Source of the DNA: Escherichia phage nieznany
DNA length: 64,000 nucleotides
Sequence record: NC_052659.1
Strand: one strand, 5' to 3'
Below the pieces are notes generated by a model that did no database searches, had not been told where the DNA came from, and was given only the letters and a program-made list of their open reading frames with translations. Made by a program: the position numbers and the translations under genes. Numbering within the stretch: position 1 is the stretch's first letter; every line of letters starts with the position of its first letter. Positions 61,467 through 62,465 of the stretch are shown here, in pieces.

Positions 61467-61496
61467 ACTATACTACATTTTACTATTGGTTGTCAA
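61467..61496 (-). promoter_or_regulatory. sigma70-like promoter for tRNA sub-cluster 1 (TTGACA-18-TATAGT), minus strand
   Basis: Plus TGTCAA 61491..61496 within CTATTGACAA motif; -10 about 6 nt upstream of tRNA-Gly 5' end. Confidence 0.45.
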
Positions 61497-61771: not shown

Positions 61772-61846
61772 TGGTGCTCCCACTCTGAATCGAACAGAGA
61801 TCCACGGATTACAAAACCGTTGTAATAGCCATTATACTATAGGAGC
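61772..61846 (-). tRNA. tRNA-Thr (anticodon TGT), CCA encoded
   Basis: Acceptor GCTCCTA/TGGGAGC, anticodon loop TTTGTAA, T-arm CTCTG-TTCGATT-CAGAG. Confidence 0.65.
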
Positions 61847-61936: not shown

Positions 61937-62023
61937 TGGCGATGAGTATAGGATTTGAACCTATATCGTTCTTTCGAACACGGATTAACAGTCCGCCGCT
62001 TAAACCATTCAGCCAACTCATCT
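61937..62023 (-). tRNA. tRNA with Asn anticodon (GTT) on a long-variable-arm scaffold, CCA encoded
   Basis: Perfect acceptor ACTCATC/GATGAGT, discriminator G, anticodon arm GCGGA-CTGTTAA-TCCGT, plus a 15-nt extra arm GTTCGAAAGAACGAT. Confidence 0.55.
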
Positions 62024-62028
62024 TAATT

Positions 62029-62116
62029 TGGTGGTGAGTGATGGAGTCGAACCACCCGAATCGCAATGATAACAGATTTACAGTCTGCCCCGCTACCCCT
62101 ACGGAATTAACTCACC
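62029..62116 (-). tRNA. tRNA-Tyr (anticodon GTA), type II, CCA encoded
   Basis: Acceptor ACTCACC/GGTGAGT, anticodon arm GCAGA-CTGTAAA-TCTGT, long variable arm, T-loop TTCGACT. Confidence 0.7.
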
Positions 62117-62336: not shown

Positions 62337-62427
62337 TGGCGGAAGGAGGGAGAGTCGAACTCCCAAGGCTCTTTCAAGCTCGGCGGTTTTCAAGACCGTT
62401 TTCGTCGCCACGTCGATTTGCCCTTCC
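62337..62427 (-). tRNA. tRNA-Ser (anticodon TGA), type II, CCA encoded
   Basis: Acceptor GGAAGGG/TCCTTCC, anticodon loop CTTGAAA, long variable arm, T-arm GGGAG-TTCGACT-CTCCC; D-region atypical. Confidence 0.6.
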
Positions 62428-62436
62428 ATACTTATA

Positions 62437-62465
62437 ATCTAACATAAAATAATGTTTGTTGTCAA
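62437..62465 (-). promoter_or_regulatory. sigma70-like promoter for tRNA sub-cluster 2 (TTGACA-17/18-TTAGAT), minus strand
   Basis: Plus TGTCAA 62460..62465 within CTATTGACAA motif; ends a few nt upstream of tRNA-Ser(TGA) 5' end. Confidence 0.4.

What the first reader, a model, noticed from the sequence alone, without database searches (positions are those of the whole stretch)
61937..62023. Chimeric-looking tRNA: Asn anticodon arm on a long-variable-arm scaffold
This gene has a perfect 7-bp acceptor stem, discriminator G, encoded CCA and a canonical T-arm. Its anticodon arm GCGGA-CTGTTAA-TCCGT is the tRNA-Asn type (anticodon GUU), yet it carries a 15-nt hairpin GTTCGAAAGAACGAT in the variable position, as in Ser/Leu/Tyr tRNAs, and sits beside tRNA-Tyr. 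If the extra arm and G73 recruit SerRS, it could mis-decode Asn codons; if AsnRS charges it, it is an unusual Asn tRNA architecture.
Basis: partly seen in the sequence, partly recalled or inferred. Interest (0 to 1): 0.6.

Follow-up and report, generated by a model that had tools for sequence, protein, structure and literature searches.

The report
Phage asparagine tRNA with extra arm
This is a real phage tRNA gene that reads asparagine codons but carries an extra hairpin normally seen only in serine, leucine and tyrosine tRNAs; the hairpin is conserved in many phages and appears to be an add-on to a normal asparagine tRNA, not a device for mis-reading the code.

Summary
Window 62022..61937 (minus strand) encodes an 86-nt tRNA with anticodon GUU, G73, encoded CCA and a 4-bp, GAAA-capped hairpin in the variable region. 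The window is Escherichia phage tuntematon (Phapecoctavirus), where the gene is annotated tRNA-Asn.

The architecture is not a one-off. Homologs occur in hundreds of phage records from four phage groups. The hairpin covaries and keeps one geometry: no 5' spacer, usually a 4-bp stem and a GNRA loop, then a 3-nt spacer. More long-arm GUU tRNAs occur in uncultured viral contigs and in bacterial tRNA arrays.

The serine-miscoding reading is not supported. Nucleotides 26-43 are identical to E. coli tRNA-Asn. The published AsnRS identity set (GUU + G73) is intact. Acceptor-end signatures of 97 long-arm GUU tRNAs match ordinary tRNA-Asn, not tRNA-Ser. Extra arms on other phage isoacceptors (Cys, Ile, Thr, Trp, Lys) keep their own discriminators.

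Best reading: a genuine Asn tRNA with a selected extra arm. Its role is untested. I infer steric protection from host tRNA-targeting nucleases, because PARIS AriB and P2 OLD cut E. coli tRNA-Asn in the anticodon stem next to where the arm emerges. I found no description of it in the searchable literature.

The parts
61937..62022 (-). Whole tRNA-Asn(GUU) gene, 86 nt including the encoded CCA
   Evidence: ARAGORN; Rfam RF00005 62.0 bits; MFE cloverleaf; annotated tRNA-Asn in MN850618
62016..62022 (-). Acceptor stem 5' strand GAUGAGU (G1-C72, A2-U71, U3-A70 ...)
   Evidence: all 7 pairs covary across 25 homologs
61998..62013 (-). D arm GCUGAAUGGUUUAAGC (3-bp stem, G13.A22; preceded by U8 G9)
   Evidence: identical in the short tRNA-Asn of Proteus phage PM2
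61980..61996 (-). Anticodon arm GCGGA-CUGUUAA-UCCGU; with G26 (61997) it is identical to E. coli tRNA-Asn nt 26-43
61987..61989 (-). Anticodon GUU (reads AAC/AAU, Asn)
61968..61979 (-). Extra (variable) arm hairpin GUUC-GAAA-GAAC, starting directly after nt 43
   Evidence: ARAGORN structure; MFE; 4 of 4 pairs change on both sides, 98% paired
61965..61967 (-). 3-nt spacer GAU between the extra arm and the T stem; the middle A is invariant in 25 homologs
   Evidence: Alignment A1
61948..61964 (-). T arm AUAGG-UUCAAAU-CCUAU
61941..61947 (-). Acceptor stem 3' strand ACUCAUC
61937..61940 (-). Discriminator G73 (61940) and encoded CCA (61937-61939)
   Evidence: G73 in 94 of 97 long-arm GUU tRNAs
62029..62116 (-). 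Neighbouring tRNA-Tyr(GUA), A73, CCA, class II; context only
   Evidence: Rfam 39 bits; sequence
62436..62465 (-). Promoter-like site TTGACA-18-TAGATT upstream of the Ser-Ser-Tyr-Asn-Thr sub-cluster; context only
   Evidence: Consensus match only; the number of sites in the region is not above the shuffle expectation

Best explanation
It is a functional, phage-encoded elongator tRNA that the host asparaginyl-tRNA synthetase charges with asparagine and that decodes AAC/AAU. Its AsnRS identity set (anticodon GUU plus discriminator G73) and its whole anticodon arm are unchanged from the host tRNA-Asn. A compact hairpin (4 bp, GAAA loop, no 5' spacer, 3-nt 3' spacer) has been added in the variable region. 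The hairpin is a selected add-on that does not change amino-acid identity.

Its most likely job, by inference only, is to make the phage copy a poor substrate for host factors that recognise ordinary tRNA-Asn. The main candidates are defence nucleases that cut the anticodon stem, such as PARIS AriB (cut at 40|41) and P2 OLD (paired CNG motif). The new helix emerges directly after nt 43, two to three base pairs from those cut sites. On this reading the phage keeps Asn decoding going when the host's tRNA-Asn is destroyed.

Shown: the structure, its conservation and covariation, the Asn-type identity signature, and restriction to phage or mobile-element tRNA sets. Inferred: charging by AsnRS (about 0.75-0.8) and the protective role of the arm (about 0.3-0.35).
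For: Structure.

Conservation: the gene matches 292 phage records. The T5-like version matches 586, of which 585 cover at least 80% of the query. The groups are Stephanstirmvirinae, Vequintavirinae, Straboviridae and Demerecviridae.

Covariation of the arm: GUUC/GAAC, GAAC/GUUC, GAGC/GCUC, AUCC/GGAU and GUCA/UGAC. In the 25-sequence alignment, 4 of 4 arm pairs change on both sides and 98% of cells pair.

Within the genus, the only changes are A5G (giving G.U), the first spacer nucleotide and a T-loop base.

Asn identity: GUU + G73 is the published E. coli set (PMC9976931). Nucleotides 26-43 are identical to E. coli tRNA-Asn. The acceptor signature of 97 long-arm GUU tRNAs (G73 97%, U1-A72 64%, C2-G71 43%) tracks short tRNA-Asn (100%, 62%, 68%), not tRNA-Ser (G1-C72 87%, G2-C71 93%, A3-U70 83%). 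The arm is gained or lost on one body: CBH8 against PM2.

Extra arms on other isoacceptors keep their cognate discriminators.

Defence context: AriB cleaves E. coli tRNA-Asn at 40|41 and phage tRNAs rescue (PMC12409363). P2 OLD also cleaves tRNA-Asn (PMC12445682). Bas33/HildyBeyeler carries the long-arm gene and needed only T5 tRNA-Lys to escape PARIS.

The gene has no match in 5,426 E. coli genomes or 72,556 plasmids. The bacterial-genome copies mostly lie in dense tRNA arrays.
Against: No aminoacylation, tRNA-seq or cleavage experiment exists for any long-arm tRNA-Asn. The T5 data (PARIS rescue, and no amber suppression after an anticodon swap) concern T5's own tRNA-Asn, which is short-armed with a remodelled anticodon stem.

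Class II synthetases approach tRNA from the variable-loop side (my recollection), so an extra arm could hinder AsnRS.

The gene keeps the AriB site UAAUC|C and the paired CNG motif, so any protection would have to be steric. T4 and T7, which lack a tRNA-Asn, were rescued from PARIS without one, so the Bas33 result is weak.

The gene has G1-C72, G73 and an arm the same size as the phage's own tRNA-Ser(GCU), so some serylation is conceivable.

Covariation shows that pairing is maintained, not what the arm is for. Much of the spread among enteric phages could be one gene moving horizontally. The 25-sequence alignment was filtered for at least 3 bp of pairing, and the collection scans required a host-like anticodon arm (GGACUGUUAAUCC).
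Confidence: 0.55

Rival explanations
1. Mis-decoding tRNA. The extra arm plus G73 recruit SerRS, which ignores anticodons, so the tRNA inserts serine at Asn codons, fully or alongside Asn charging.
For: It has an extra arm, G73 and G1-C72. Its variable region (15 nt, 4 bp, GAAA) is the same size as the phage's own tRNA-Ser(GCU). The D arm is class II-like, and Ser-type D arms are over-represented among nearest neighbours of the family (16 of 97 best hits against a 7% share). SerRS relies mainly on the arm and tertiary shape (PMC9976931). Natural precedents exist, such as nematode nev-tRNAs (PMC3333845) and allo-tRNAs (PMC7609411).
Against: The gene has A2-U71 and U3-A70 where phage tRNA-Ser keep G2-C71 (93%) and A3-U70 (83%). 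In the family, 2:71 varies freely, and 43% carry C2-G71, a published SerRS antideterminant. The arm geometry 0/4/4/3 differs from tRNA-Ser in the same genomes and is closer to tRNA-Tyr. E. coli tRNA-Tyr needed arm lengthening as well as G73 to accept serine (my recollection of Himeno et al. 1990, not checked here). The anticodon arm is held identical to host tRNA-Asn, which SerRS would not require. Extra arms on Cys, Ile, Lys, Val and Gly tRNAs keep non-G discriminators. It is the only GUU tRNA ARAGORN found in each phage tRNA cluster I fetched.
Confidence: 0.1
2. Tolerated passenger. The hairpin is a neutral insertion in a working tRNA-Asn. It stays paired only because an unpaired 15-nt loop would be harmful, and it spread by horizontal transfer of one gene among enteric phages.
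For: Enteric-phage copies are 75-87% identical and could be one gene family. PM2 works without the arm. Covariation proves only maintenance of pairing. I know of no factor shown to bind such an arm.
Against: The arm is retained with an exact geometry and an invariant spacer A across four phage groups. Stable GNRA or UUCG tetraloops are chosen repeatedly: 52 of 84 hairpins are GNRA. Other geometries in environmental phages suggest several origins. The same kind of arm appears on other isoacceptors in phage clusters. A 12-nt hairpin is easy to delete, yet PM2 was the only arm-less copy of this lineage among the ten homologs I retrieved.
Confidence: 0.2
3. A handle for something other than defence evasion. 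The arm might stabilise folding of a fast-made, under-modified tRNA, guide processing of the polycistronic precursor, or mark 'self' for a phage enzyme that degrades or modifies host tRNAs.
For: GNRA-capped hairpins are strong folding nuclei. The arm displaces the usual 44-48 loop, so G46 (m7G46 in E. coli tRNA-Asn, by my recollection) has no conserved equivalent in the spacer. The gene sits in a densely packed, co-oriented cluster of 12 tRNAs with promoter-like and terminator-like sites.
Against: Only this one of the phage's nine class I-type isoacceptor genes has the arm, which argues against a general processing or folding need. I looked for no phage factor that might bind it and know of none.
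Confidence: 0.1
4. Decoy. The RNA is not used in translation but soaks up or inhibits a host tRNase. The PARIS authors raised this possibility for some viral tRNAs.
For: The anticodon arm is identical to the host target, which would suit a competitive ligand. PMC12409363 discusses possible inhibition by overexpressed viral tRNAs.
Against: The full acceptor stem, G73, encoded CCA, canonical T arm and intact AsnRS identity set are all conserved, and a decoy would not need them. A bioRxiv study found that phage tRNA-Thr replaces host tRNA cleaved by OLD and does not inhibit OLD (10.64898/2026.07.10.737580).
Confidence: 0.05

Closest known systems
Bacterial tRNA-Asn (E. coli asnT/U/V/W type, class I)
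   Same: Anticodon GUU, G73 and CCA. Nucleotides 26-43 (G26 plus the whole anticodon arm) are identical. U33-G34-U35 and U36-A37 are present, which by my recollection is the context for Q34 and t6A37.
   Different: The variable region is 15 nt with a 4-bp hairpin instead of the 5-nt loop AUGUC. It has G1-C72, A2-U71 and U3-A70 instead of U1-A72, C2-G71 and C3-G70. The D stem has 3 bp with G9 and G13.A22 instead of a 4-bp GUUC/GAAC stem.
Phage T5 tRNA-Asn(GUU), shown to help neutralise PARIS (PMC12409363)
   Same: A phage-encoded GUU tRNA in a large tRNA cluster, for an isoacceptor that host Toprim nucleases attack.
   Different: T5's gene is class I (78 nt) and escapes through a remodelled anticodon stem and loop (GCAUC-UUGUUAA-GUUGA). 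This gene keeps the host anticodon arm and adds an arm instead. No experiment has tested the long-arm form directly.
Class II tRNAs (tRNA-Ser, tRNA-Leu and bacterial tRNA-Tyr)
   Same: A helical extra arm between the anticodon and T arms, and a class II-like D arm. The arm's size and geometry are closest to phage tRNA-Tyr arms (0-1 nt 5' spacer, 3-4 bp, 4-5 nt loop, 2-3 nt 3' spacer).
   Different: The anticodon is not Ser, Leu or Tyr. It has G73, not the A73 of Tyr and Leu. It lacks the G2-C71 and A3-U70 of tRNA-Ser. The arm is shorter than most tRNA-Ser arms and has no 5' spacer.
Natural mistranslating or identity-mismatched tRNAs (nematode nev-tRNAs, PMC3333845; allo-tRNAs, PMC7609411)
   Same: An extra arm combined with an anticodon that normally belongs to a class I isoacceptor.
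   Different: In those tRNAs the body carries the identity set of a synthetase that ignores the anticodon (LeuRS, SerRS or AlaRS). Here the acceptor end and anticodon carry the cognate Asn set.

Membership tests
tRNA (Rfam RF00005) | Cloverleaf that scores above the curated covariance-model threshold | tested here: met
   62.0 bits against a gathering score of 29, full-length match to model positions 1-71; ARAGORN call; MFE cloverleaf
Bacterial tRNA-Asn (AsnRS substrate) | Anticodon G34 U35 U36 | tested here: met
   CUGUUAA loop; identity rule from PMC9976931
Bacterial tRNA-Asn (AsnRS substrate) | Discriminator G73 | tested here: met
   G at 61940; G73 in 94 of 97 long-arm GUU tRNAs
Bacterial tRNA-Asn (AsnRS substrate) | Class I architecture with a 4-5 nt variable loop | tested here: not met
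   The variable region is 15 nt with a 4-bp hairpin
Bacterial tRNA-Asn (AsnRS substrate) | U1-A72 first pair, typical of bacterial tRNA-Asn and a GatCAB determinant | tested here: not met
   G1-C72 in this gene. U1-A72 occurs in 64% of the long-arm family and 62% of short phage tRNA-Asn. E. coli AsnRS identity does not list it.
Bacterial tRNA-Asn (AsnRS substrate) | Aminoacylation with asparagine | not testable with these tools
   Needs an in vitro charging assay or analysis of charged tRNA from infected cells
tRNA-Ser (SerRS substrate) | Long helical variable arm | tested here: inconclusive
   A 4-bp arm is present, the same size as the phage's tRNA-Ser(GCU). The geometry is 0/4/4/3, whereas tRNA-Ser in the same genomes mostly have 1-6 nt 5' spacers and 4-8 bp stems.
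tRNA-Ser (SerRS substrate) | G1-C72 and G2-C71, conserved in bacterial tRNA-Ser (PMC9976931) | tested here: not met
   G1-C72 is present but 2:71 is A-U. Phage tRNA-Ser have G2-C71 in 93% and A3-U70 in 83%; this gene has U3-A70.
tRNA-Ser (SerRS substrate) | Discriminator G73 | tested here: met
   G73, which is shared with Asn identity
tRNA-Ser (SerRS substrate) | Serine anticodon (NGA or GCU) | tested here: not met
   The anticodon is GUU. It differs from GCU by one base, but the whole arm equals host tRNA-Asn.
Bacterial tRNA-Tyr (class II) | A73 and anticodon GUA | tested here: not met
   The gene has G73 and GUU. All 72 phage tRNA-Tyr in the data have A73.
Identity-mismatched (mistranslating) tRNAs such as nev-tRNA and allo-tRNA | Body carries the identity set of an anticodon-blind synthetase, combined with a non-cognate anticodon | tested here: not met
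   The acceptor-end signature of the family follows tRNA-Asn, not tRNA-Ser. 43% carry C2-G71, the SerRS antideterminant.
Phage counter-defence tRNAs (nuclease-resistant variants) | Phage-encoded copy of an isoacceptor that a host defence tRNase targets | tested here: met
   The gene is phage-encoded. tRNA-Asn(GUU) is a target of PARIS AriB and of P2 OLD (PMC12409363, PMC12445682).
Phage counter-defence tRNAs (nuclease-resistant variants) | Substitutions at or around the nuclease cleavage site | tested here: not met
   The anticodon arm is identical to the host's, including UAAUC|C and the paired CNG motif. The difference lies in the adjacent extra arm instead.
Phage counter-defence tRNAs (nuclease-resistant variants) | Demonstrated resistance to cleavage, or rescue of infection | not testable with these tools
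   There is only indirect evidence: Bas33, which carries the long-arm gene, needed only T5 tRNA-Lys to escape PARIS.

The most novel reading that the evidence does not exclude
Short, tetraloop-capped extra arms on normally class I phage tRNAs (Asn here; also Cys, Ile, Thr, Trp, Lys and others) are a general, repeatedly evolved counter-defence module. A helix placed beside the anticodon stem would sterically block stem-cutting defence nucleases of the PARIS AriB and OLD type, or other host tRNA-recognising factors. It would leave synthetase identity elements untouched. That would make it a second escape route, alongside the known mutation of the cleavage site.
Probability: 0.3. Interest if true: 0.8.

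Novelty: new variant of a known kind. Interest (0 to 1): 0.55.

Why it matters
Textbook bacterial tRNAs fall into two classes, with extra arms reserved for Ser, Leu and Tyr (plus Sec). Here an Asn tRNA with a conserved, covarying extra arm is common in well-studied coliphage groups: phAPEC8-like phages, many T5-like and T4-like phages, and Vequintavirinae. Similar arms occur on other isoacceptors in phage tRNA clusters.

The searchable literature on phage tRNAs and tRNA-targeting immunity does not mention it. That includes papers that test tRNA-Asn directly.

If the arm protects against anticodon-stem nucleases, it would be a new structural escape route in the tRNA arms race. It would also give a simple design rule for nuclease-resistant tRNAs. 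If it does not hinder AsnRS, it would show that a class IIb synthetase tolerates an extra arm, which matters for tRNA engineering.

The practical point for annotators is that 'tRNA-Asn' is probably the right label, and the gene should not be read as a recoding device.

Tried and rejected
1. T5 annotation notes. T5 tRNA-Asn does not become an amber suppressor, whereas T5 tRNA-Ser1 and Ser3 do. I hoped this would test SerRS recognition. I rejected it because T5's own tRNA-Asn is short-armed with a different anticodon stem.

2. Bas34's PARIS sensitivity as evidence against protection. I first assumed Bas34 carried the long-arm gene. Bas34 is SelmaRatti. Its '77-nt tRNA-Asn' is a long-arm homolog with a broken acceptor stem that ARAGORN does not call. 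It says nothing about an intact gene.

3. Nearest-neighbour classification on D and T arms, with the anticodon arm and variable region masked. It was too noisy to decide the origin. The best hit for this gene is PM2's short tRNA-Asn, but Ser-type D arms are enriched across the family.

4. Origin by duplication of the adjacent tRNA-Tyr (GUA to GUU is one base). The acceptor stems are 6 of 7 identical, but the D arm, T arm and discriminator differ, and other phages show no such similarity. Unresolved, and probably not the origin.

5. A tRNA-Ser(GCU) paralog with C35U. Rejected because the whole anticodon arm equals host tRNA-Asn and differs from the phage's tRNA-Ser(GCU).

6. Literature searches for any description of long-arm tRNA-Asn or extra-arm class I tRNAs in phages or tRNA arrays found none. 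Older subscription papers are not searchable here, and Lenhard et al. 1999 could not be read.

7. Searches of E. coli genomes and plasmids for the gene found no match.

8. Many pattern hits in bacterial genomes were chance matches inside coding sequence and were discarded.

Full report
**What is there.** The window matches Escherichia phage tuntematon (Phapecoctavirus, Stephanstirmvirinae; MN850618) at 100% over the 3.5 kb queried. ARAGORN calls tRNA-Asn(gtt) at 61937-62022 on the minus strand. Rfam's tRNA model scores it 62.0 bits (gathering score 29) and places a 12-nt insertion in the variable region.

The RNA reads GAUGAGU-UG-GCUGAAUGGUUUAAGC-G-GCGGA-CUGUUAA-UCCGU-GUUC-GAAA-GAAC-GAU-AUAGG-UUCAAAU-CCUAU-ACUCAUC-G-CCA. 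The minimum-free-energy fold gives the same five-arm cloverleaf without any tRNA-specific model.

The gene lies in a co-oriented cluster of 12 tRNA genes, all with encoded CCA. On the minus strand a promoter-like repeat lies at 62465-62436 and a terminator-like hairpin at 60685-60667. These are consensus matches only. The neighbour at 62029-62116 is a tRNA-Tyr(GUA) that ARAGORN and the GenBank record miss.

**It is conserved, and the extra arm is under selection.** The gene matches 292 phage records, 65 of them at 95% identity or more. A T5-like version matches 586 records.

I retrieved homologs from Justusliebigvirus, Mydovirus and Henunavirus (Vequintavirinae), from Winklervirus and Karamvirus (T4-like Straboviridae), and from Epseptimavirus, Priunavirus and Novosibvirus (T5-like Demerecviridae). 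BLAST found all nine by sequence similarity, with no selection for pairing. All nine share one plan: the extra stem starts directly after nt 43, and three unpaired nucleotides follow it before the T stem. Eight have a 4-bp stem (CBH8 has 3 bp). Eight have a GNRA tetraloop (seven GAAA, one GCAA); KB57 has AUUA.

The stem sequences covary: GUUC/GAAC, GAAC/GUUC, GAGC/GCUC, AUCC/GGAT, GUCA/UGAC. On a 25-sequence alignment, all four arm pairs change on both sides and 98% of cells are paired. This matches the acceptor and T stems, and sliding the 3' partners by 1-3 columns drops pairing for the whole structure to 34-47%. That set was filtered for at least 3 bp of pairing, so the nine unfiltered sequences carry the argument. 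The middle spacer nucleotide is an invariant A.

Within the genus, the only substitutions are A5G (G.U-compatible), the first spacer base and one T-loop base.

**How widespread it is.** Many hits without an ARAGORN call were chance matches inside coding sequence.

ARAGORN still recovered 94 distinct long-arm GUU tRNAs; a later parse counted 97. Of those 97, 84 have a hairpin of at least 3 bp, and 52 of the 84 loops are GNRA. The bacterial-genome copies mostly sit in arrays of up to about 35 tRNA genes within 5-6 kb, in Micromonospora, Verrucosispora, Methyloprofundus and others. From my own knowledge, that organisation is typical of mobile elements.

The tuntematon gene has no match in 5,426 complete E. 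coli genomes or 72,556 plasmids.

In a sample of 120 viral loci chosen without regard to the variable arm, 2 of 18 tRNA-Asn were long-armed.

**Which amino acid?** Published E. coli rules say Asn identity rests on the GUU anticodon and G73. Ser identity rests on the extra arm and tertiary shape, a moderately important G73, and acceptor-stem pairs. G1-C72 and G2-C71 are conserved in bacterial tRNA-Ser, and C2-G71 is a SerRS antideterminant (PMC9976931).

The phage gene has GUU and G73. Its nucleotides 26-43 are identical to E. coli tRNA-Asn, whose sequence I verified in 5,425 of 5,426 genomes. Its acceptor stem has G1-C72 but A2-U71 and U3-A70.

| Class | n | Discriminator | 1:72 | 2:71 | 3:70 |
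|---|---|---|---|---|---|
| Long-arm GUU | 97 | G73 97% | U-A 64% | C-G 43% | varied |
| Short tRNA-Asn | 34 | G73 100% | U-A 62% | C-G 68% | C-G 62% |
| tRNA-Ser | 125 | G73 65% | G-C 87% | G-C 93% | A-U 83% |
| tRNA-Tyr | 72 | A73 100% | G-C 89% | G-C 64% | G-C 56% |
| tRNA-Leu | 162 | A73 98% | G-C 51% | C-G 64% | C-G 45% |

The long-arm family therefore evolves under tRNA-Asn constraints, not tRNA-Ser constraints.

The arm geometry (0-nt spacer, 4 bp, 4-nt loop, 3-nt spacer) also differs from tRNA-Ser in the same genomes. Those mostly have 1-6 nt 5' spacers and stems of 4-8 bp. The geometry is closer to phage tRNA-Tyr arms.

Serratia phage CBH8 and Proteus phage PM2 carry almost the same tRNA-Asn body, with and without the hairpin. 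The Vequintavirinae versions have a D arm nearly identical to E. coli tRNA-Asn. So the hairpin is an insertion or deletion within tRNA-Asn genes, not a swap of an anticodon arm onto a serine scaffold. A masked nearest-neighbour test was too noisy to settle the deeper origin.

**A broader pattern.** In the flanks of the fetched viral loci, which were not selected for isoacceptor, over-long variable regions occur on tRNA-Cys (7 of 35), Ile (10 of 59), Thr (7 of 51), Trp (4 of 38) and, more rarely, others. The unbiased sample shows the same. Of 82 such non-Asn tRNAs, 58 have a hairpin of at least 3 bp, and 18 of those loops are GNRA.

These tRNAs keep their own cognate discriminators: Cys U73 8 of 8, Ile A73 16 of 17, Val A73 5 of 5, Lys A73 3 of 3, Gly U73 3 of 3. 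There is no drift toward G73. The arm therefore behaves as an add-on unrelated to serine identity.

**What the arm may do.** This part is inference. E. coli tRNA-Asn(GUU) is a documented target of two prophage-borne Toprim nucleases. PARIS AriB cuts between nt 40 and 41 (UAAUC|C), and phage T5 tRNA-Lys, -Thr and -Asn together neutralise it (PMC12409363). P2 OLD cuts both strands at a paired CNG motif in the anticodon stem (PMC12445682).

T5's own tRNA-Asn is short-armed and escapes through a remodelled anticodon stem and loop. The tuntematon gene keeps the host stem, including both motifs, but places a new helix immediately after nt 43, two to three base pairs from the cut sites. I therefore propose the arm is an alternative, steric route to the same end.

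The cluster's tRNA-Thr(UGU) has a U31.U39 mismatch, which fits the 'shortened anticodon stem' signature reported for OLD-resistant phage tRNA-Thr.

The only indirect experimental hint concerns Bas33/HildyBeyeler. Its tRNA-Asn is the long-arm type, and it needed only T5 tRNA-Lys to escape PARIS. T4 and T7 lack any tRNA-Asn and were also rescued without one, so this hint is weak. Neither defence paper mentions the variable region.

**Rivals.**
- Serine miscoding is unlikely, at about 0.1, but no charging experiment excludes it.
- A neutral, tolerated insertion spread by horizontal transfer remains possible, at about 0.2. Against it stand the fixed geometry, the repeated choice of stable tetraloops, the several geometries in environmental phages and the recurrence on other isoacceptors.
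- A role in folding, processing or self-marking, or as a decoy, cannot be excluded.

**Novelty.** The gene is already annotated as tRNA-Asn in dozens of GenBank records. Eight full-text searches found no paper describing an extra-arm tRNA-Asn, or extra arms on class I isoacceptors, in phages (the most relevant were). Reviews of non-canonical tRNAs and tRNA identity were included. Older subscription literature could not be searched. I rate it a new variant of a known kind.

Noticed in passing
window 62337-62427 (-): An unannotated class II tRNA-like gene: anticodon loop CUUGAAA (UGA, Ser), extra arm GCUU-GAAA-GAGC, G73 and encoded CCA. ARAGORN, Rfam at gathering threshold and the GenBank record all miss it. 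The permissive Rfam scan hits only tRNA-Sec at 37.4 bits, below its threshold of 47. Its odd D arm resembles T5 tRNA-Ser2(GGA) and S114 tRNA-Ser(GGA). It is probably a tRNA-Ser(UGA); relatives annotate two tRNA-Ser genes here.
   Followed up: partly
window 62029-62116 (-): A tRNA-Tyr(GUA) with A73 and CCA that ARAGORN and the tuntematon GenBank annotation miss (Rfam 39 bits). Its acceptor stem GGUGAGU differs from the adjacent tRNA-Asn (GAUGAGU) by a single base pair. That is the closest pair among the 12 tRNAs of the cluster. Other phages I checked do not show this similarity, and its meaning is unknown.
   Followed up: partly
L319 14599-14683 (Escherichia phage SelmaRatti = Bas34, MZ501103): The gene annotated as a 77-nt tRNA-Asn is a long-arm homolog (hairpin GUC-GAAA-GAC-AAC, loop UUGUUAA). 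Its 3' acceptor strand ACCCGCU no longer pairs with the 5' strand GGGUCGU, and ARAGORN calls no gene there. It is probably a decayed copy. That would explain why Bas34 needed T5 tRNA-Asn in trans to escape PARIS despite 'encoding' one (PMC12409363).
   Followed up: partly
viral loci L077-L316, e.g. L008 2565-2651 (tRNA-Trp), L089 4406-4492 (tRNA-Thr), L081 9032-9115 (tRNA-Cys), L260 12382-12468 (tRNA-Lys): Many phage-encoded tRNAs of normally class I isoacceptors carry short extra arms, often GNRA-capped, and keep their cognate discriminators. In the flanks of the first viral scan the counts were Cys 7/35, Ile 10/59, Thr 7/51 and Trp 4/38.
   Followed up: partly
e.g. L207 4811-4905, L246 7993-8084, L296 2613-2706, L100 9355-9446: tRNA-Ile(UAU) genes in viral contigs have 90-96-nt bodies. 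Their long variable regions share a recurring CAGAUUAG- or CAGAUAAG-like motif in the loop. This is a distinct extra-arm type that I did not examine further.
   Followed up: no
L016 (Verrucosispora), L017/L026/L067 (Micromonospora), L071 (Methyloprofundus), L032 (Flavobacteriales MAG): Bacterial-genome copies of long-arm tRNA-Asn lie in arrays of up to about 35 tRNA genes within 5-6 kb. The Micromonospora-type copies have a 6-bp extra stem and a bacterial-type UCC...GGA acceptor stem.
   Followed up: partly
L028, L040, L041, L053 (Hyphomicrobiaceae and other alphaproteobacterial MAGs); L036, L062 (Saprospiraceae); L012 (Actinomadura): tRNA-like sequences with a GUU anticodon loop and a long extra arm that ARAGORN does not call, for example ...GGUCGAGCACUGGACUGUUAAUCCAGCGGGCGAAAGCCCUGCGUGGGUUCGAAUCCCACA.... 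They may be non-canonical tRNAs of another kind.
   Followed up: no
window 61772-61846 (-): The phage tRNA-Thr(UGU) has a U31.U39 mismatch that shortens the anticodon stem to 4 bp. This matches the signature reported for phage tRNA-Thr that resist P2 OLD (PMC12445682).
   Followed up: no
window 61467-61496 and 62436-62465 (-): Two copies of a shared element containing TTGACA-18-TATAGT or TAGATT (CTATTGACAAC...) lie upstream of tRNA sub-clusters. GenBank annotates one as a repeat_region. They are probably the cluster's promoters.
   Followed up: no
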